This document shows positions 8,692 through 15,878 of a DNA stretch of 64,000 nt, piece after piece (the first letter of the stretch is position 1; every line of letters begins with the position of its first letter). A model generated the notes under the pieces. That model did no database searches. It had not been told where the DNA came from and saw nothing but the letters and a program-made list of their open reading frames with translations. The translations under genes were made by a program, and so were the position numbers. Origin of the DNA: Candidatus Saccharimonadota bacterium (GTDB lineage Bacteria; Patescibacteriota; Saccharimonadia; Saccharimonadales; UBA4665); contig JAQBRQ010000041.1 in NCBI GenBank assembly GCA_028286385.1, forward strand, positions 826-64,825, in the 5' to 3' direction.

Positions 8692-8769
8692 TGGGGCGAA
8701 CTATGGGAATTGAACCCACGACCTCCGGAACCACAACCCGGCGCTCTAACCAACTGAGCTAAGCCCGCC
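8692..8769 (-). tRNA. tRNA-His (anticodon GTG) with an encoded G-1
   Basis: The reverse complement folds: G-1 plus acceptor GCGGGCT/AGTTCGC, D GCTC/GAGC, anticodon stem CCGGG/TCCGG with loop TTGTGGT, and T arm GTGGG-TTCAATT-CCCAT. Discriminator C pairs with G-1. CCA is encoded. Confidence 0.9.
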
Positions 8770-9212: not shown

Positions 9213-9424
9213 GATGGACTCCTTACGGTAATTGGAATTGGTAAGAAGTACTATAACGCCTACGCTTAGTTATTGCTGTAAGCTAGCTTACTTCAACTGT
9301 CGTAAAAGATCTCTTCGATCTTGCGCAACGGTGATGCAATCATAGCGGTCTTCGTATACTTCACGTGGCTTTAAGTTCACTGTCGTATATTCAATAATAC
9401 AACCTGAATTCAAAGAGTATAGTG

Positions 9425-9453
9425 TTGATCGCCACGGTTTTCACTGATATACT
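9425..9453 (+). promoter_or_regulatory. Putative sigma-70-type promoter of the island operon
   Basis: TTGATC, a 17-nt spacer, then TATACT. GGGAGGGG (Shine-Dalgarno) follows, then the ATG at 9472. Confidence 0.45.
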
Positions 9454-9471: not shown

Positions 9472-11214
9472 ATGAAAAAAAATACACTTACGGTAATCGA
9501 TTTCTTCTCAGGGGCAGGCGGATTTTCCGAAGGTTTTAGACAACAGGGCTTCAAGATTGTTAAGGGTATCGACCGGTGGGAACCAGCGGTTAAGACACAT
9601 AACCTTAATCATGGCTTGGAAGACACCGTCGAGAACGTACTGGACTATGCAGGCTCAAATTCCTCTGACGTTGAGCGCATTGAAACACTACCTGACGTAG
9701 ACGTTATCATTGGCAGCCCCTCCTGCGTTACATTCTCCATGTCCAATAAAGGTGGTAAGGCTGATAAGACTGAGGGTTTGAGACTCATTGAAGCGTACCT
9801 CAGAGTGATAGCCGTAAAAAAGCATAAGCAAGGTAGCCGTCTTAAGGCCTGGCTTATGGAGAATGTTCCCAATAGTGGCAACTATGTTAAGCACGACTAT
9901 ACTTTCAAAGACTTGAATCTTGAGGATTGGGCATCTGCTAATTCACTGGAGGCTGACTCCGTTGCCTTGACTCTTAACGGAACCGTATTAAATGCGAGTG
10001 ATTATGGTGCGCCGCAGAACCGAAGTCGTTTCATATGCGGTGAAACCATATCAGACGGAAAATTCCCTGCACCCAAGCCTACGACTCATATTAAGCCACT
10101 GCTCAAAGACATAAGATTAAAGATGCCTAAGCCGAGCGATGTACGCCCCAAGGGATCATACGAGGACCCTAACTACCCAGGCCTTATTATTGAAGCAAAG
10201 CAGATTAGCGACCACTTCTACGACACTGGGCTATATGTAACTCAATGGGAGCAATCAAAGTACCTTAAGACGATGCATCCTTTTATGGGTAGAATGTCAT
10301 TTCCTGAAGCGGATGAGAACAGCTCGCGGACGGTTACTGCTACACGATCTATAAGTAGCCGCGAGTCTTTGATCTATAAATCAGAATACGATAGAACCGG
10401 GCATGGCGAATACAGGACCCCAACCATACGCGAAGCTGCTTCGCTCATGGGTTACCCGTACACCTATCAGTTTTTCGGATCAGAGGGCGTGAAATGGAAG
10501 CTTATTGGAAATAGCGTTAGCCCTCACCTTAGCTCGGCTTTGGCATCGGCAATGCTTGTAAAGGAAGGCCGTAAACCGGTTGCCGTAAAAAACATACCTT
10601 TCGAAGAACAGAAAGAACTGTACCTCTCAGTTGATAACCTCAACACTTTCTCGCCTATAAAGTTCGACCAGCGAAAACTTAGAAAACCAGGTGCGAAGTT
10701 CAGACGATCAGTATACAAGGGCCAAAATATGACTGTTGACTTGCTGAACTATAATCCGAGCACAAATGATACGGCGGGCATAAAATGGTATGTGGGTACG
10801 TTTTATGGAACGGGCAGCGACCACAAGTATGATGTGCTAAAAAAAGGCCAGTACTCAAAACTTGCAAAGGTGCTTGGTGACAACTTTGATCTCTTTGATG
10901 AGTTTCGTACTGAGTTGGAGAAATTTACGGGCAATACTTCAATGAACGCTCGTACTCTTCAGCAGGCATACGAAACGGACTCAGATTTAGCGGATAAGCA
11001 AAATCCACTGGTTATTATCGAGCGTATCCGGCAGCTTACGAATAAGTACGGCGCTCTACAGCCCGACCTCAGGCTTGAACTAAGCGGGATGCATAAGCAA
11101 AACTTCTTATTTGGGCAACTCCTCTGCTTGTTCTCACTAGGCCATATCGTATACAATAATTTGGTAAGTGAACCAAGAGTCGTAAGTGAAAATTCTTTGG
11201 CTTTTGGAATATAA
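9472..11214 (+). CDS. DNA (cytosine-5)-methyltransferase with a ~215-aa C-terminal extension
   Basis: All the diagnostic C5-MTase motifs are present: I DFFSGAGGFSEGF, IV GSPSCVTFS (catalytic Cys), VI LMENV, VIII QNRSRF, IX REAASLMGYP and X IGNSVSP. Confidence 0.9.
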   Translation: MKKNTLTVIDFFSGAGGFSEGFRQQGFKIVKGIDRWEPAVKTHNLNHGLEDTVENVLDYAGSNSSDVERIETLPDVDVIIGSPSCVTFSMSNKGGKADKTEGLRLIEAYLRVIAVKKHKQGSRLKAWLMENVPNSGNYVKHDYTFKDLNLEDWASANSLEADSVALTLNGTVLNASDYGAPQNRSRFICGETISDGKFPAPKPTTHIKPLLKDIRLKMPKPSDVRPKGSYEDPNYPGLIIEAKQISDHFYDTGLYVTQWEQSKYLKTMHPFMGRMSFPEADENSSRTVTATRSISSRESLIYKSEYDRTGHGEYRTPTIREAASLMGYPYTYQFFGSEGVKWKLIGNSVSPHLSSALASAMLVKEGRKPVAVKNIPFEEQKELYLSVDNLNTFSPIKFDQRKLRKPGAKFRRSVYKGQNMTVDLLNYNPSTNDTAGIKWYVGTFYGTGSDHKYDVLKKGQYSKLAKVLGDNFDLFDEFRTELEKFTGNTSMNARTLQQAYETDSDLADKQNPLVIIERIRQLTNKYGALQPDLRLELSGMHKQNFLFGQLLCLFSLGHIVYNNLVSEPRVVSENSLAFGI

Positions 11215-11257: not shown

Positions 11258-12652
11258 ATGAATCAGCATACCAGAACACAGAAGATCTCCGAGATTACCA
11301 GCAGAGAACAAGAAAAGTATGGTCGCCAAGACATTCCTTGGAAAGATAGGCTTGAGCCTATGGACGTATACAAGATCCCTCTCGAGTACCTTGTATATAA
11401 CAAATATAACGGCCGCATCTTAAGCCGCACAAAATCCCTTGAAAAACAGCATCACAAAATTAACGAAGAGACGGAAGACGGAAAAAGATTACTAGAGGAC
11501 CTGCTGTTTGAGTCTAATCAGGGACGCAACAAACAGACACTCGAGAGCCTAAAGAAGATTGGCCAGGAAAAGGTAGGCATCATTACGCGTGACGGCATCA
11601 TAATCGATGGCAACCGACGCGCTATGTTATTAGCCAAGGCTGGAACTCGCTATTTTAAAGCAGTTGTACTCCCGGTAACGCTAGAGGAGAATCCACTAGA
11701 AATTGAGAAACTAGAGACTTCTTATCAAATGGGCGAGGATGAAAAACTCGGCTATAACCCTACCGAAAAATACCTGAAGGCAAAACAGCTCCAAAAACAA
11801 GGTGTACCAATTTCTGATATTGCCCGATGGATGGCGGAGTCAGAGGGGCAGATTAAGGAAAACCTCTACATCATGGAGATTATGGATGACTACTTAGACT
11901 ATCTAGGTATAAATGGTATATACACACAGCTTGATAACCGTGAAGATCAATTCATAACCCTATCAAACCAGCTCAAAAACTTTTATGGCGAAAACAGCGC
12001 CAAGCCCTTTGACGGCTATCGTGATAGCGATGTAGATGATTTGAAGAACGTATCCTTCGACTATATCCGGGTCAAATATGAGGGTAAGGACTTTCGTAAT
12101 ATAGCCTATGGTCTGCGCGAAAATCACTTCTTTGGTAACAAAGTAATATGGGAAGACTTTAGGGACTTTCACTTTAATCACATGAAGTCGATGGAGCTAC
12201 TAGAAGCTAAGATCGATCTAGACTCACAAGACCTTGAGGCTCACCTTAACGCCAGAGACACCACATTCAATAAGTTGACCCAAGACGAAAATGGGAAGAG
12301 CTTCCTCAATGAGAATATGGAAGATCATATTCAAAAGCTGAGGTACAACAAAGCTAAAGATCAGCCCGCAAAATTAGCCAAGGATTCTATAGGCGCACTT
12401 CAGGCAATCGACCCTAAACATAATGCTTCATCGAAGCCCGAAGTCGTAGAGCAGATTCAGAATATTGCCGATTTAGCTTTCAGCATGCTGACTGACAAAT
12501 CACCGAAACGAGTCATGAGTCAAGTTGTTGATCTCTTAAGTGCAATCAATTTGAAGGGTACCACCGAGACAAAGGAAGAACTGCTTGCTGCGGTCAAAGA
12601 GATTGAAAAACAAGCGTATAAGATTGAAAAAGAAATCAAGAGTTCTTTGTAG
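11258..12652 (+). CDS. ParB/sulfiredoxin-fold (ParB N-terminal domain-like) protein with a long helical C-terminal region
   Basis: The N-terminal blocks IPLEYLVYNKYNGRI and GIIIDGNRRAMLLAK resemble the ParB-N/DndB/DUF262-type core (..N.R.., DG..R). Confidence 0.6.
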   Translation: MNQHTRTQKISEITSREQEKYGRQDIPWKDRLEPMDVYKIPLEYLVYNKYNGRILSRTKSLEKQHHKINEETEDGKRLLEDLLFESNQGRNKQTLESLKKIGQEKVGIITRDGIIIDGNRRAMLLAKAGTRYFKAVVLPVTLEENPLEIEKLETSYQMGEDEKLGYNPTEKYLKAKQLQKQGVPISDIARWMAESEGQIKENLYIMEIMDDYLDYLGINGIYTQLDNREDQFITLSNQLKNFYGENSAKPFDGYRDSDVDDLKNVSFDYIRVKYEGKDFRNIAYGLRENHFFGNKVIWEDFRDFHFNHMKSMELLEAKIDLDSQDLEAHLNARDTTFNKLTQDENGKSFLNENMEDHIQKLRYNKAKDQPAKLAKDSIGALQAIDPKHNASSKPEVVEQIQNIADLAFSMLTDKSPKRVMSQVVDLLSAINLKGTTETKEELLAAVKEIEKQAYKIEKEIKSSL

Positions 12653-12661
12653 AAAGGCCTC

Positions 12662-14626
12662 GTGAATATAGATACTGACAATGATAATTTTAGCTATGTA
12701 CTCAGCGGCGACATAGCTAATTTGCTTGCTAATAGGCGGCTTTTATTTTCGCTTAAAAGGCTCGGCTATGAAGAGGATGGAGGTAGGCTTCTTATACCTT
12801 TTCTACCGCAAACCAAAATAAAGACACTCCAAGAGATTCAAGACTTGCTGGCTAAGTTCGGCTATAGCCACCAACTCTCCGAGAAGTCAAAAAAGGACGT
12901 CGAAAGCTTTACCCGTGAAAAGGATAACTTCGAAATATTTTCCGCGAAAGCTAAGAATATTCGCAATAATAATTTCCAAGACAACCCAGAGTTAGTAGCC
13001 GAGTTCGACCATTTCCAACAAGTGCTTGGGAAAAAGCTGGTCAGGAAACTTTACCCACTACAGTTACTGTCTGCATACCACATGGCCTTTGCGCAGAACG
13101 CATGTAATTTTGCCGTCCCCGGTGCTGGCAAGACCTCAATTGTCTACGGAGCATACGCCTACCTGAAGAACTTGCCAGCTGACGATCCAAAGCACGTAGA
13201 TAACCTCCTGGTAATCGGACCTCTATCTTCGTTTGCCCCGTGGGAAAAAGAATATGAAAAATGTTTTGGCGTACCAGCTAACGTGCAGCGTCTGTCCGGT
13301 GACTCAAAAATAACTCACGACCAAAAGGCACAACATCTATACTCGGGCGACCCTTCGGAGGTAACCCTAATTTTTACAGGCGGTGTTAGCGGCCTGCAAG
13401 AAGATGTAATCGACTTTCTCAAGCGAAACAAAACTATGGTTGTAGTCGATGAAGCTCACCGTATAAAAAATCCGGATGGCCTGTGGGGCAAGAGCAGCGT
13501 TGAAATCGCAAAGGAAGCAAAAGCCCGGGTGATACTGACAGGAACGCCTGCTCCTAACGGCTATGAAGACCTGTTCAATCTCTACCAGTTTCTTTATCCC
13601 TACAAGTACAAGGATATTTTGAAGTTTCACTATGAAAATTTGGTAGACATGTCGAAAATCGGTCTGCACGATACTGACCGTGTCCAGTCTTTTATCAACA
13701 ACATTGCACCGTACTTCATACGCATAAAGAAAAAAGACCTTAAGTTGCCCCCCACTAAGGATCATATTGTAGTTTGCGAAATGGATCAGGCACAAAGAGA
13801 GATATACGATTTCATCGAGACGAAGTACATCAAAAACTTTGAGCACGATAGCTACGCGACCGTGAAGAACGTGCTTAACAAGGCTAGGTTAATTAGGCTG
13901 AGGCAAGCCAGTTCGAACCCCGCACTTCTAGAGAAGCCTATACGAGAAACACTGACGGATGAAGACTACGACTCACCAGCACTTAATAATATCAAGTTGC
14001 CTGACGAATTCCAGAATGACTCAGAAATACTTGCGAAGATTAAGAACTACTCACTCAATCACGTTCCTCAAAAATTCCTAGCCACCCAAAAAGTACTACG
14101 TGATCACATAATCGATGATGGACAGAAAGCCATCATTTGGACTATATTCATCCAGAACGCCAAAGAACTCCAAGAGTACCTGCAAGAGAAAGGTATCAAA
14201 TCTAAGCTGCTAATTGGCGAGGTGGATCAGTCGGATCGTGAAGTTATCATTGATAAATTCAACGACCCTGAAAATACTGAGTTCCAAGTGGTCATCGCTA
14301 ACCCATTTTCTGTGGCAGAGTCCATATCGCTTCACAACGGCTGCCATAACGCTATTTACATGGAGCGAGATTACAATTGTGCTAACTTCCTACAATCAAA
14401 AGATCGTATACACAGAGTGGGATTATCCCCTTCCCAGGAGACTAATTACTACTATATCTTGGCGAGTGATTCAATCGACGGGGTCATAAACGATTCCTTG
14501 GATAAAAAAGTATTAAGGATGGAAAAAATAATTGATGAGGATATCCCTCTGTTTACCAGGCTCGAGGATGGAGATGAAACCGATTTAATAAAAGCATTAC
14601 TTGAAGATTATGCTCGACGAACTTAG
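12662..14626 (+). CDS. SNF2-family (SF2) DEAH-box helicase/translocase
   Basis: Motifs: I AVPGAGKTS, II VVDEAHRIKN, III ILTGTPAPNGYEDLFNLYQFL, and VI QSKDRIHRVGL. GTG start 9 nt after the upstream stop. Confidence 0.85.
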   Translation: MNIDTDNDNFSYVLSGDIANLLANRRLLFSLKRLGYEEDGGRLLIPFLPQTKIKTLQEIQDLLAKFGYSHQLSEKSKKDVESFTREKDNFEIFSAKAKNIRNNNFQDNPELVAEFDHFQQVLGKKLVRKLYPLQLLSAYHMAFAQNACNFAVPGAGKTSIVYGAYAYLKNLPADDPKHVDNLLVIGPLSSFAPWEKEYEKCFGVPANVQRLSGDSKITHDQKAQHLYSGDPSEVTLIFTGGVSGLQEDVIDFLKRNKTMVVVDEAHRIKNPDGLWGKSSVEIAKEAKARVILTGTPAPNGYEDLFNLYQFLYPYKYKDILKFHYENLVDMSKIGLHDTDRVQSFINNIAPYFIRIKKKDLKLPPTKDHIVVCEMDQAQREIYDFIETKYIKNFEHDSYATVKNVLNKARLIRLRQASSNPALLEKPIRETLTDEDYDSPALNNIKLPDEFQNDSEILAKIKNYSLNHVPQKFLATQKVLRDHIIDDGQKAIIWTIFIQNAKELQEYLQEKGIKSKLLIGEVDQSDREVIIDKFNDPENTEFQVVIANPFSVAESISLHNGCHNAIYMERDYNCANFLQSKDRIHRVGLSPSQETNYYYILASDSIDGVINDSLDKKVLRMEKIIDEDIPLFTRLEDGDETDLIKALLEDYARRT

Positions 14627-15590
14627 GGCATACGAGAATCTCGGTACGCCTAAGTATTTTTGGGAGCTACTAACTCAGGTTAACGGCTGCGAGGATAATT
14701 GGAGTGTCGATGACACGAACCAGTATTTCTTTAATAGGATAATCGACGGTGTGAGGATATTTGATGGTTGCATTCAGTTCGCTGAAGCTATAGGTGTAAT
14801 AAAAGTGGACAGTGACGGTTGCATCACTCTCGATGCAGAATTCGACCCGTTACCGCGAAGCGAGAATCATCTTCATAACAAGATGGTAGAAAAGCTATTC
14901 ATGGTCCTTAAAGACGACGATATACTTCAGGGCATATTCTCGTCCGAGAATGTGAGCTATGATATTATCTACCGATCAATACAAATAGATAACGCTGCGT
15001 TCAGTCTCAAATATTCGAACTTCAAAGACTTGTTGGTGAGTTTCGGATTCCTAACGCCCCATCCGGATGTGAATATACCAAAGTACGTTGTGAACGGGAG
15101 GTACAGGCGGTTGTTTGACCAGATTTTGTTGCCTGAAATAAAGCGACGCAAAATAGGGATCAATGAGCTTAGAAAGTCGGTCGAGCAAAAACAAGTATAT
15201 GGTGATGAGGCGGAGAAGTTCGTGCTTGGATACGAGAAAATCCGCCTGGCGGAACATCCTAACTTAGACAAAATTGAGATTATATCCGAATATGATGTTT
15301 CGGCTGGCTATGATTTGGTTTCTTTCTGCGAAAACGACTCAACCGAGATAGATAGATTCGTCGAAGTGAAATCATTTTCAGGTTCGCCTTACTTCTATTG
15401 GTCTAGAAACGAAGTAGATACAGCCAGAATAAGGCGGGATACTTATTATTTGTATTTGGTAGACAGAGACAAATTGAATGACGAAGACTACATTCCCCTA
15501 ATCATCCAGGACCCCTATGTTAATATTCTGGATAAACCTGAAGAGTGGAATAAGCGAGTTGAGAGTTACTTCATTAGCCATCCAGTGTAA
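14601..15590 (+). CDS. DUF3883-type (PD-(D/E)xK restriction-endonuclease-fold) domain protein
   Basis: The C-terminal block GDEAEKFVLGYEKIRL...SAGYDLVSF...DRFVEVKS...FYWSRNEVDTA...YYLYLV matches the DUF3883 pattern. The start is TTG 14601 or ATG 14610; either overlaps the SNF2 stop at 14626. Confidence 0.6.
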   Translation: MKIMLDELRAYENLGTPKYFWELLTQVNGCEDNWSVDDTNQYFFNRIIDGVRIFDGCIQFAEAIGVIKVDSDGCITLDAEFDPLPRSENHLHNKMVEKLFMVLKDDDILQGIFSSENVSYDIIYRSIQIDNAAFSLKYSNFKDLLVSFGFLTPHPDVNIPKYVVNGRYRRLFDQILLPEIKRRKIGINELRKSVEQKQVYGDEAEKFVLGYEKIRLAEHPNLDKIEIISEYDVSAGYDLVSFCENDSTEIDRFVEVKSFSGSPYFYWSRNEVDTARIRRDTYYLYLVDRDKLNDEDYIPLIIQDPYVNILDKPEEWNKRVESYFISHPV

Positions 15591-15703: not shown

Positions 15704-15780
15704 TGGTGCCCCGGGCTGGACTCGAACCAGCGACCTTAGGCTTAGAAGTCCTCTGCTCTATCCATCTGAGCTACCAGGGC
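15704..15780 (-). tRNA. tRNA-Arg (anticodon TCT)
   Basis: Acceptor GCCCTGG/CCGGGGC, D GCTC/GAGC, loop CTTCTAA, T arm GCTGG-TTCGAGT-CCAGC, encoded CCA. The anticodon stem has only 3 Watson-Crick pairs (GAGGA/GCCTA). Confidence 0.75.
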
Positions 15781-15803
15781 ATGGCACCAATATTGTTCAA
15801 TGA

Positions 15804-15878
15804 TGGTGCGGGTGCGGAGAGTCGAACTCCGATCACCAGTTTGGAAAACTGGGATAATAACCGCTATACGACACCCGC
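15804..15878 (-). tRNA. tRNA-Gly (anticodon TCC)
   Basis: Acceptor GCGGGTG/CACCCGC, anticodon stem CCAGT/ACTGG with loop TTTCCAA, T arm CGGAG-TTCGACT-CTCCG, 4-nt variable loop, encoded CCA. Confidence 0.9.

What the first reader, a model, noticed from the sequence alone, without database searches (positions are those of the whole stretch)
11258..12652. ParB/Srx-fold protein embedded between the methyltransferase and the helicase
The N-terminal ~130 aa carry the two hallmark ParB-N blocks (..YNKYNGRI.. and IIIDGNRRAMLL). About 330 aa of mostly helical sequence follow, with no recognisable partition-type HTH or parS context, and no parA is nearby. Its position inside a modification/helicase/nuclease operon argues for a defence role rather than chromosome segregation. 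That role could be NTP-dependent DNA clamp or sensor, nickase, or regulator, as in DndB, DpdB or DUF262 proteins. The biochemical role of such modules in restriction-like systems is largely unknown.
Basis: partly seen in the sequence, partly recalled or inferred. Interest (0 to 1): 0.6.

Follow-up and report, generated by a model that had tools for sequence, protein, structure and literature searches.

The report
Hidden ParB-fold subunit of defence cassette
The gene encodes a real but unannotated relative of the chromosome-partition protein ParB; it is always paired with an SNF2 motor inside a mobile, methylase-linked, restriction-like immune cassette, so it probably acts as a nucleotide-controlled switch in defence rather than in chromosome segregation.

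Summary
ORF 11258-12652 (+, 464 aa) carries YNKYNGRI (res 47-54) and IIIDGNRRAMLL (res 114-125). N48, N51, R53, N119 and R121 are invariant in 61 homologues down to 24% identity.

No Pfam, NCBIfam or PADLOC model detects the protein. The AlphaFold model (pLDDT 87.7) matches only ParB, Noc, KorB, Spo0J and sulfiredoxin structures. A deep profile aligns it to chromosomal ParB (hhalign 90.8%, E 1e-6) over box II, box III and the ParB helix-turn-helix. Residues 218-464 form an orphan helical domain.

In 79 of 80 related loci, spanning a dozen or more phyla, the gene directly precedes its own SNF2 helicase. A C5 methylase and a swappable effector (NOV_C nuclease, TIR or MutH/Sau3AI-like) accompany them. 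Distant plasmid versions of the pair sit beside Type III R-M genes or in an AbiR-like trio. parA is absent, and the gene is missing from 39 of 40 relatives.

Best reading: an NTP-gated switch or sensor subunit of an unnamed methylation-linked defence system related to lactococcal AbiR. The arginines that bind CTP in ParB are kept. Both putative hydrolysis residues are replaced (Q to N, E to N).

The parts
9425..9453 (+). Promoter-like site (TTGATC-17-TATACT with TG) upstream of the cassette
   Evidence: Consensus scan only. The surrounding sequence is conserved in the 91%-identical locus L001. Function is not shown.
9472..11214 (+). C5 cytosine DNA methyltransferase (580 aa) with a C-terminal extension of about 215 aa; presumed self-marking or antidote component
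   Evidence: PF00145 at E 5e-35 and TIGR00675 at 106 bits. Motifs FSGAGG (res 12), PSC (83), ENV (130), QNR (182) and GNSV (346) are present. It is the only PF00145 gene in the genome. The same type lies upstream in 60 of 80 related loci.
11258..12652 (+). The finding: a 464-aa divergent ParB-fold protein ('X')
11396..11419 (+). Box I equivalent, YNKYNGRI (res 47-54). N51 aligns to the ParB Gln (C. crescentus Q58) and R53 to R60
   Evidence: N48, N51 and R53 are 61/61. The register comes from a restricted hhalign run, which is weak on its own (E 0.028). Residue roles are taken from PMC8367383.
11597..11632 (+). Box II equivalent, IIIDGNRRAMLL (res 114-125). G118-N119-R120-R121 aligns to ParB G-E-R-R
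   Evidence: hhalign of A3 against A2. Conservation is G 59/61, N 61/61, R 60/61 and R 61/61.
11693..11908 (+). Box III-like helix and loop (LETSYQMGEDEK, YNPTEKY) plus a ParB-type helix-turn-helix equivalent (res 146-217); acidic
   Evidence: hhalign alignment to ParB ENVQRVDLSP and to the HTH. E153, Q157 and Y172 are 61/61. The loop 160-165 has pLDDT below 50. Net charge of residues 184-217 is -6.
11909..12649 (+). Orphan all-helical C-terminal domain (res 218-464)
   Evidence: A separate model has pLDDT 84.8. It has no PDB match; the best E is 0.76. It is not shared with the plasmid AbiR-like relatives, whose similarity ends at residue 217.
12662..14626 (+). SNF2-family ATPase (654 aa), the invariant partner of X
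   Evidence: PF00176 at E 3e-28 and Helicase_C at 1.5e-9. Motifs GAGKT (154), DEAH (263) and QSKDR (578) are present. It starts 9 nt after the X stop codon. It is present in 79 of 80 loci. Identity correlation with X is r=0.91.
14601..15590 (+). NOV_C/DUF3883 PD-(D/E)xK-type nuclease-fold protein (329 aa); presumed effector
   Evidence: PF13020 at E 4e-11. PADLOC hits are PD-T4-1 and TmtA. GYD at residue 236 and VEVKS at 254 are present. The gene overlaps the end of the SNF2 gene. Other loci carry TIR or MutH-like genes in its place.
8692..8768 (-). tRNA-His, left border of the island
   Evidence: ARAGORN. G+C drops from about 0.50 to 0.43-0.46 across 8-16 kb.
15704..15878 (-). tRNA-Arg(TCT) and tRNA-Gly(TCC), right border of the island
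   Evidence: ARAGORN.

Best explanation
**What it is**
- X is a strongly diverged homologue of the ParB/Noc/KorB class.
- It has a ParB N-terminal nucleotide-binding domain (boxes I-III) followed by the ParB-type helix-turn-helix.
- A family-specific helical C-terminal domain of about 250 aa is added.
- It is not a partition protein.

**The system it belongs to**
- With the SNF2 ATPase encoded 9 nt downstream, X forms the invariant two-gene core of a horizontally mobile, methylation-linked defence system.
- In this window the core is completed by a dedicated C5 cytosine methylase, which marks self DNA and keeps the system harmless to the host.
- A NOV_C PD-(D/E)xK nuclease, translationally coupled to SNF2, is the likely effector.

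**Proposed working (inferred)**
- X binds a nucleoside triphosphate in the ParB pocket. R53, R120 and R121 match the residues needed for CTP binding in ParB.
- The two residues implicated in hydrolysis are invariantly Asn here (Q58 to N51, E102 to N119). X should therefore hydrolyse slowly or not at all, and behave as a long-lived NTP-bound switch.
- In that state it licenses or tethers the SNF2 motor and its effector on DNA that lacks the methyl mark.

**Shown versus inferred**
- Shown here: the fold, motif conservation, the obligate pairing with SNF2, the link to methylases, effector swapping, the patchy distribution and the absence of parA.
- Inferred: NTP binding, the identity of the nucleotide, whether X itself clamps DNA, and how methylation is read.
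For: **Fold and motifs**
- The AlphaFold model has pLDDT 87.7.
- The top 35 Foldseek PDB hits are all ParB-fold proteins, with best E 5e-5. The viral library also returns ParB/Srx proteins.
- hhalign of 61 diverse members against seven chromosomal ParBs gives Prob 90.8% and E 1.2e-6. It aligns GNRR to GERR, box III and the HTH.
- 22 of 61 members hit PF18763 (ddrB-ParB) below threshold, and 4 hit HTH_ParB.
- The invariant residues are pocket residues. Their roles in ParB are taken from PMC8367383.

**Genomic context**
- X is followed by SNF2 in 79 of 80 loci from a dozen or more phyla, including an archaeon.
- Identity across loci tracks SNF2 best, r=0.91.
- A C5 methylase lies nearby in nearly all loci that have enough flanking sequence.
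- The effector is NOV_C, TIR or MutH/Sau3AI-like.

**Distant relatives**
- Plasmid pairs (X at 29-32% identity, E 5e-22; SNF2 at 31%, E 2e-80) sit next to Type III Mod+Res genes or a sigma70-like protein.
- That last architecture matches AbiR. AbiR blocks phage DNA replication, needs M.LlaKR2I and is toxic without it (review PMC13064643).

**Accessory character**
- The gene lies on a tRNA-bounded, low-GC island.
- It is absent from 39 of 40 relatives.
- The host has its own canonical ParB elsewhere.
- A fused SNF2+NOV_C protein (HmaA) is an experimentally shown anti-T4 nickase (PMC11232893).
Against: - No biochemical data exist for this family.
- X is acidic (pI 5.6). Its HTH-equivalent segment has net charge -6, against +2 in the host ParB. 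The only conserved basic residues are the pocket ones plus R271 and R280. Direct ParB-like DNA clamping or sequence reading by X is therefore doubtful.
- No curated ParB model reaches significance on P0001 itself.
- The box I register rests on a weak local alignment.
- The box III residue mapping is ambiguous, and that loop is modelled poorly.
- The link to AbiR was made through architecture and a review. The pKR223 sequences were not compared, and no 'AbiR' name appeared among 120 homologues.
- The TIR variants suggest abortive infection rather than classical restriction, so 'restriction of unmethylated DNA' may be too simple.
Confidence: 0.6

Rival explanations
1. X is itself a nuclease or nickase of the ParB/Srx type, like Osa, GmrS or the ParB-methylase nickases. 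It would contribute DNA cleavage, regulated by NTP, and would not act as a switch.
For: - ParB/Srx domains in conflict systems have been reported as non-specific NTP-regulated DNases (PMC5512222).
- The nearest Pfam model, below threshold, is the DdrB-like ParB 'DNase' domain.
- X has a DG-x-RR motif with Asp at the strand end (D117, 51/61).
Against: - Almost every cassette already carries a dedicated effector: NOV_C, MutH-like, Type III Res or TIR.
- X lacks the His of the DGxHR nuclease-type motif.
- It is acidic, with few conserved basic surface residues.
Confidence: 0.12
2. X is an NTPase cofactor of the modification enzyme, as DpdB is for DpdA or DndB for Dnd. It would help or limit methylation by the C5 methylase.
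For: - X lies directly after the methylase in 60 of 80 loci.
- ParB-superfamily proteins accompany the modification modules of the Dpd and Dnd systems (PMC10164549 abstract; PMC10853773).
- The canonical methylase has an unexplained extension of about 215 aa that could dock X.
Against: - X stays with SNF2 when the methylase is moved, inverted, replaced by short C5 enzymes or by a Type III N6/N4 Mod, or is absent beside the AbiR-like trio.
- Identity correlation with the methylase is the weakest, at 0.65.
- There are no hits to DpdB or DndB models.
Confidence: 0.1
3. X is a transcriptional regulator of the cassette, acting as a KorB- or DndB-like repressor.
For: - It has a ParB-type HTH equivalent.
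- KorB is among the best structural matches.
- A 24-nt near-palindrome lies upstream of the operon at 9273-9296.
Against: - The palindrome is not conserved in any of the 80 related loci.
- The HTH segment is acidic.
- A conserved NTP pocket, a size of 464 aa and strict co-inheritance with SNF2 are unusual for an operon repressor.
Confidence: 0.07
4. X is a plasmid or chromosome partition ParB.
For: Only the fold.
Against: - No ParA is present in the window.
- A ParA-like gene occurs in 1 of 80 loci, and it is not adjacent.
- The host has its own canonical ParB on another contig.
- PF02195 does not detect X.
- No parS-like repeat is conserved.
Confidence: 0.01

Closest known systems
ParB / Noc / KorB (ParB-CTPase fold, CTP-dependent DNA clamps)
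   Same: - Same fold, and the same order of N-domain boxes I-III followed by the HTH.
- The CTP-binding arginines are conserved: R53, R120 and R121 correspond to C. crescentus R60, R103 and R104.
   Different: - No ParA or parS is associated.
- Pfam ParB_N does not detect it.
- About 30 extra residues are inserted between box I and the core.
- The catalytic-candidate Gln and Glu are both invariant Asn.
- The HTH is acidic.
- The C-terminal dimerisation domain is replaced by an orphan 250-aa helical domain.
- It is obligately paired with an SNF2 ATPase.
AbiR of Lactococcus lactis pKR223 (AbiRi sigma70-like, AbiRii ParB-like, AbiRiii nuclease+SNF2; depends on M.LlaKR2I)
   Same: - It has a ParB-like plus SNF2 core and depends on a C5 methylase (review PMC13064643).
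- Plasmid trios with this architecture are homologous to the window's proteins. X matches over residues 34-217 at E 5e-22, and SNF2 at E 2e-80.
- Sau3AI/LlaKR2I-type R-M genes accompany some X-SNF2 pairs (L008, L009, L018).
   Different: - The window has no sigma70-like AbiRi.
- The methylase is dedicated and carries a long extension.
- The nuclease is a separate NOV_C protein.
- The C-terminal half of X is unrelated.
- Identity in the shared part is only about 30%.
- The pKR223 sequences themselves were not compared.
DdrB-like ParB domain (Pfam PF18763; phage P1 DdrB, polyvalent proteins)
   Same: It is the nearest Pfam model. 22 of 61 family members match it around the DGNRR strand and helix.
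   Different: - All matches fall below the 27.6-bit cut-off (best E 7.6e-5), and P0001 itself gives no hit.
- DdrB-type domains are phage-borne and injected, whereas this protein is in a cellular defence-like cassette.
DndB / DpdB / DUF262 (ParB-superfamily proteins of modification-based defence)
   Same: They are ParB/Srx-superfamily proteins embedded in modification-restriction systems.
   Different: - There are no hits to their models.
- The motif is DGNRR, not DGQHR or DGQQR.
- X carries a ParB-type HTH and is tied to SNF2 rather than to the modification enzyme.
Hma system (HmaA = SNF2 fused to a NOV_C nuclease; HmaB methylase; HmaC DUF499 ATPase)
   Same: It combines SNF2, a NOV_C nuclease and a methylase. 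HmaA is an experimentally shown anti-T4 nickase (PMC11232893).
   Different: - Hma has no ParB-fold component.
- Its methylase (DUF1156) and ATPase (DUF499) are different proteins.
- The window proteins did not hit Hma models in PADLOC.

Membership tests
ParB/Srx superfamily (fold level) | ParB N-domain alpha/beta fold | tested here: met
   The model has pLDDT 87.7. Foldseek PDB ranks 1-35 are all ParB, Noc, KorB, Spo0J, pNOB8-ParB, Srx or PadC, with best E 5e-5 and probability 1.00. The BFVD library likewise returns ParB/Srx proteins.
ParB/Srx superfamily (fold level) | Conserved Arg-containing box II (GxxR / GERR) in the pocket | tested here: met
   G118-N119-R120-R121 aligns to G-E-R-R. Conservation is 59, 61, 60 and 61 of 61.
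Canonical ParB (Pfam ParB_N PF02195; partition, Noc and KorB class) | Significant match to PF02195 | tested here: not met
   P0001 gives no hit at E<=1. The genome search with PF02195 finds only the host's canonical ParB on contig C48. Profile-profile comparison to ParB is positive (E 1.2e-6).
Canonical ParB (partition, Noc and KorB class) | HTH DNA-binding domain directly after the N-domain | tested here: inconclusive
   An aligned HTH equivalent exists, and 4 of 61 members weakly hit HTH_ParB. The segment is acidic, with net charge -6. DNA binding was not tested.
Canonical ParB (partition class) | ParA partner and parS sites | tested here: not met
   No ParA-like gene is in the window. One of 80 loci has one, and it is not adjacent. 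No conserved palindrome was found.
Canonical ParB CTPase | Catalytic-candidate Gln (box I) and Glu (box II) | tested here: not met
   Both positions are invariant Asn, N51 and N119, in 61 of 61 sequences. Their roles in ParB come from PMC8367383. The box I register is weakly supported.
Canonical ParB CTPase | CTP binding and N-domain dimerisation (clamp closure) | not testable with these tools
   This needs biochemistry or a multimer prediction.
DdrB-like ParB (PF18763) | Match above the gathering score (27.6 bits) | tested here: not met
   22 of 61 members match, all below the cut-off. The best E is 7.6e-5, and scores of 13.5-19.3 bits were seen. P0001 gives no hit.
DndB / DUF262 / DpdB | Match to their Pfam, NCBIfam or PADLOC models; DGQHR or DGQQR motif | tested here: not met
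   No such hits at E<=1. The motif is DGNRR.
AbiR-type system | ParB-like protein plus SNF2-type ATPase encoded together | tested here: met
   Present in the window and in 79 of 80 loci. X and SNF2 are homologous to the plasmid trio with AbiR architecture.
AbiR-type system | Sigma70-like AbiRi component | tested here: not met
   It is absent from the window cassette. It is present only in the E. faecalis-type plasmid trio.
AbiR-type system | Dependence on a DNA methylase (toxic without it) and an anti-phage phenotype | not testable with these tools
   This is reported for AbiR in the review PMC13064643. Only the genomic linkage to C5 methylases was shown here.
AbiR-type system | Sequence homology to pKR223 AbiRb itself | not tested
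   The pKR223 sequence is not in the collections searched. The primary papers are not held. No 'AbiR' name appeared among the homologues.

The most novel reading that the evidence does not exclude
X would be a naturally hydrolysis-impaired ParB-type nucleotide switch, with Gln-to-Asn and Glu-to-Asn changes fixed across the family. Locked to its own SNF2 motor, it would form a portable sensing and licensing core for a previously unnamed class of methylation-gated immunity. This core would plug into different self-marking modules: a dedicated C5 methylase, Type II Sau3AI-like or DpnII/BanI-like R-M, or Type III R-M. It would drive interchangeable executioners (NOV_C nuclease, MutH-like nuclease, TIR). 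The class would span a dozen or more phyla, from CPR bacteria to an archaeon. That would extend the ParB CTP-switch principle from chromosome segregation and transcription (ParB, Noc, KorB) to immunity.
Probability: 0.3. Interest if true: 0.8.

Novelty: new variant of a known kind. Interest (0 to 1): 0.6.

Why it matters
- **Size of the blind spot.** The family is large: 1,583 clusters at 50% identity, and more than 1,400 hits in the 90% database. Every named member is called 'hypothetical'. Pfam, NCBIfam and PADLOC do not see it, so current defence-system finders miss the cassette.
- **Extending the ParB switch.** ParB-CTPase switches are a recent and active topic (ParB, Noc, KorB). A branch fixed to an SNF2 motor inside immune cassettes, with both hydrolysis-candidate residues replaced, would be a natural experiment on how the switch can be rewired.
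- **Explaining AbiR.** The family offers a mechanistic handle on lactococcal AbiR, which has gone unexplained for 25 years.
- **Host biology.** The cassette occupies about 0.8% of an 832-kb Saccharibacteria-type genome. It carries that genome's only C5 methylase, so it probably defines the organism's m5C methylome and its barrier to foreign DNA.

Tried and rejected
- **Curated models.** Direct scans of P0001 against Pfam, NCBIfam and PADLOC found nothing relevant at E<=1. PHROGs gave only a ParB-like hit at E 0.037.
- **PDB by sequence.** Searches with the single sequence and with the profile of 35 found only coiled-coil noise.
- **Shallow alignment.** hhalign with the shallow alignment A1 against ParB was not significant (E 0.042, Prob 1.3%). 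The diverse alignment A3 was needed.
- **Box I.** Extending the alignment to box I by lowering mact failed. A restricted local alignment gave the expected register, but weakly.
- **C-terminal domain.** It was modelled and searched on its own, and no structural relative was found.
- **Operator or parS.** The only palindrome upstream (9273-9296) is not conserved in relatives.
- **Literature.** Searches for a named methylase-ParB-SNF2-DUF3883/TIR system found none. The BREX and Dnd comparative papers do not describe it.
- **AbiR sources.** The primary AbiR papers are not held. No homologue carries the name AbiR.
- **Memberships rejected.** Partition ParB, DISARM (no DrmA/B), Zorya, Dpd and Hma were rejected. 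Only the helicase shows generic SNF2 similarity to ZorD, DrmD and DpdE.
Full report
**1. The observation**

The ORF at 11258-12652 (+) is intact and encodes 464 aa. YNKYNGRI lies at residues 47-54 and IIIDGNRRAMLL at residues 114-125.

The gene sits in a tight co-directional array:
- C5 cytosine methylase, 9472-11214 (PF00145, E 5e-35).
- X, 43 nt further on.
- SNF2 ATPase, 12662-14626, 9 nt after X (PF00176, E 3e-28).
- NOV_C/DUF3883 nuclease-fold protein, 14601-15590, overlapping the SNF2 stop (PF13020, E 4e-11).

The array is bounded by tRNA-His on the left and by tRNA-Arg and tRNA-Gly on the right. It lies in a G+C trough of 0.43-0.46, against about 0.50 in the flanks.

**2. Is it a ParB fold?**

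Curated libraries do not see it. Pfam, NCBIfam and PADLOC give nothing relevant at E<=1. PHROGs gives a ParB-like family at E 0.037. PDB sequence searches are empty.

The family is nonetheless large and strongly conserved:
- More than 1,400 hits in the 90% database, every named one 'hypothetical'.
- 1,583 clusters at 50% identity with E<=1e-3.

An AlphaFold2 model built on 35 homologues is confident (pLDDT 87.7, pTM 0.78). Its Foldseek matches at ranks 1-35 in the PDB are exclusively ParB-fold proteins, with best E 5e-5:
- ParB bound to CDP or CTPgammaS, Noc, KorB and Spo0J.
- pNOB8 ParB-N, sulfiredoxin and PadC.

The viral library gives the same picture.

A shallow profile was not enough for hhalign. 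A 61-sequence alignment reaching 24% identity aligns to seven chromosomal ParBs from the host's relatives at Prob 90.8% and E 1.2e-6. The alignment matches three regions:
- IIDGNRRAML with IIAGERRWRA (box II).
- LE..Q.G.D.K..YNP.EKY with LE..ENVQRVDLSPLEQA (box III).
- ISDIARWMAESEGQIKENL with YDEIAKRLGKANSTVNNTV, the ParB HTH.

Individually, 22 of 61 members touch Pfam's DdrB-like ParB domain below its cut-off, and 4 touch HTH_ParB.

The fold claim is therefore supported.

**3. The nucleotide pocket**

Across the 61 diverse members the invariant positions are N48, N51, R53, Q103, N119, R121, E153, Q157, Y172, Y212 and L213. G118, R120, D112 and G113 are near-invariant.

Mutagenesis of C. crescentus ParB gives the reference roles (PMC8367383):
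- R60, R103, R104, N136 and R139 are needed for CTP binding.
- Q58 and E135 mutants bind CTP but do not hydrolyse it.
- E102A binds CTP and closes the clamp but does not hydrolyse; the authors call it 'clamp-locked'.

In X the arginines are kept: R53, R120 and R121, with K163 aligned to R139. The positions of Q58 and E102 are invariant Asn (N51 and N119).

I infer an NTP-binding switch with slow or no intrinsic hydrolysis. Three caveats apply:
- The box I register rests on a weak restricted alignment (E 0.028).
- The box III loop (residues 160-165) is poorly modelled.
- The nucleotide's identity is unknown.

**4. What argues against a simple 'ParB clamp on DNA'**

X is acidic, with pI 5.6 and net charge -10. 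The HTH-equivalent segment (residues 184-217) has net charge -6, against +2 for the host ParB's HTH.

The only basic residues conserved in at least 80% of members are R6, the pocket residues R53, R120, R121, K163 and K171, and R271 and R280.

Residues 218-464 form an all-helical domain (pLDDT 84.8) with no structural relative; the best Foldseek E is 0.76. This half is not shared with the distant plasmid relatives. That suits a partner-docking role.

**5. Genomic context across 80 species**

A scan of species-representative genomes returned 80 loci. They come from a dozen or more phyla:
- Patescibacteria, including a Saccharibacteria MAG at 91% identity.
- Bacteroidota, Acidobacteriota and Pseudomonadota.
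- Campylobacterota, Bacillota and Chloroflexota.
- Spirochaetota, Verrucomicrobiota and Melainabacteria.
- Caldisericota, and the archaeon Methanolobus.

Partners were found as follows:
- The window's SNF2 protein has a homologue directly downstream of X in 79 of 80 loci. The exception is a truncated contig.
- The long C5 methylase lies upstream in 60 loci.
- NOV_C lies downstream in 69 loci.

Variants are informative:
- In L056, L059, L060, L061 and L063 a TIR-domain protein replaces NOV_C.
- In L008 and L009 a MutH/Sau3AI-like nuclease plus a short C5 methylase follow SNF2. L018 has these in addition to NOV_C.
- In L076-L080 a short C5 methylase plus a DpnII/BanI-like Type II endonuclease precede X.
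- In L005, L043 and L055 a short C5 methylase is inverted or upstream.

Identity of X across loci tracks SNF2 (r=0.91) better than NOV_C (0.85) or the methylase (0.65).

A ParA-like gene occurs in only 1 of 80 loci, and not adjacent to X. None is present in the window.

Among 40 relatives of the host, only one carries even a distant homologue. The host has its own canonical ParB elsewhere.

**6. Distant relatives and the AbiR lead**

Notes from earlier agents in this scan pointed to lactococcal AbiR. I treated this as a lead and tested what I could.

tblastn against plasmids found X-like genes at 29-36% identity over residues 33-217 in lactic-acid-bacterial and enterococcal plasmids. Their contexts fall into two types:
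- Type III Mod + Res, then X-like, then helicase: L. paracasei L091 and L. lactis L093.
- A sigma70-like 864-aa protein, then X-like, then helicase: E. faecalis L092.

Pairwise BLASTP confirms homology of both core proteins. X scores E 5e-22 and 5e-21, keeping YN..N.RI, IDGNRR and LE...Q.G...K..YNP. SNF2 scores E 2e-80.

A 2026 review describes AbiR as follows (PMC13064643):
- AbiRi is sigma70-like.
- AbiRii is ParB-like, superimposed on 5K5D, which is also among my structural hits.
- AbiRiii is a nuclease plus SNF2.
- AbiR interferes with phage DNA replication.
- It requires the LlaKR2I methylase and is toxic without it.

That matches the E. faecalis architecture and the methylase linkage seen here. 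I could not compare the pKR223 sequences themselves. The primary papers are not held, and no homologue carries the name AbiR.

HmaA, an SNF2 protein fused to NOV_C, is an experimentally shown anti-T4 nickase (PMC11232893). It is a precedent for the SNF2+NOV_C effector arm, but Hma has no ParB component.

**7. Mechanism**

The best-supported reading has four parts:
- X and SNF2 form an obligate sensing and motor core.
- A DNA methylase marks self DNA and prevents self-attack.
- A swappable effector executes the response.
- X contributes a nucleotide-gated conformational switch derived from the ParB CTPase fold.

Whether X touches DNA, reads methylation or merely gates the motor is open, and the acidity of X counts against direct clamping.

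Rival readings:
- Nickase: about 0.12.
- DpdB-like cofactor of the methylase: about 0.10.
- Operon repressor: about 0.07.
- Partition protein: about 0.01.

They are less likely for the reasons given in their entries. The main ones are the constant SNF2 partnership, the variable type and position of the methylase, the presence of dedicated effectors, and the absence of a conserved operator.

**8. Novelty**

I found no description of the methylase-ParB-SNF2-NOV_C/TIR cassette in the searchable literature. No model for X exists in Pfam, NCBIfam or PADLOC.

A ParB-like plus SNF2 core is already implied for AbiR, and ParB-superfamily proteins are known in Dnd and Dpd systems. I therefore class this as a new variant of a known kind, not categorically new.

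Noticed in passing
window 9273-9296: A 24-nt near-palindrome (TTGCTGTAAGCT/AGCTTACTTCAA) lies about 175 nt upstream of the methylase start. Its 14-nt core is unique in the window and absent from all 80 related loci, allowing one mismatch.
   Followed up: yes
window 9472-11214: The cassette's methylase has PSC instead of the usual PC motif IV, and a C-terminal extension of about 215 aa. The extension is retained in most canonical cassettes, where tblastn coverage reaches residue about 560. It is the only PF00145 gene in the 832-kb genome.
   Followed up: partly
L056:11256-12296, and L059, L060, L061, L063: In five loci a TIR-domain protein of about 346 aa (PF13676, E 1e-12) takes the place of the NOV_C nuclease after SNF2. 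This hints at an abortive-infection output for the same core.
   Followed up: partly
L091 (L. paracasei plasmid) and L093 (L. lactis plasmid pIBB109_AgSa_3): A distant X-SNF2 pair is appended directly to a complete Type III R-M system (N6/N4 Mod with an EcoP15I-type C-terminus, plus Res). The core therefore also associates with non-C5 methylation.
   Followed up: partly
P0124 (749 aa): One cluster representative carries the full X module at residues 293-747, behind an unexamined N-terminal extension of about 290 aa. It may be a fusion or a gene-calling artefact.
   Followed up: no
G037:C24:33699-34418: This is the only other genome among the 40 relatives with any X-like gene. It is a distant copy (32% identity, E 1.7e-15, open frame 463 aa). 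Its context was not examined.
   Followed up: no
L078:735-1481: This is the single ParA-like gene found in any of the 80 loci. It lies about 6.5 kb from X on the other strand, in a Prevotella contig that also carries a Type II R-M pair upstream of X.
   Followed up: partly
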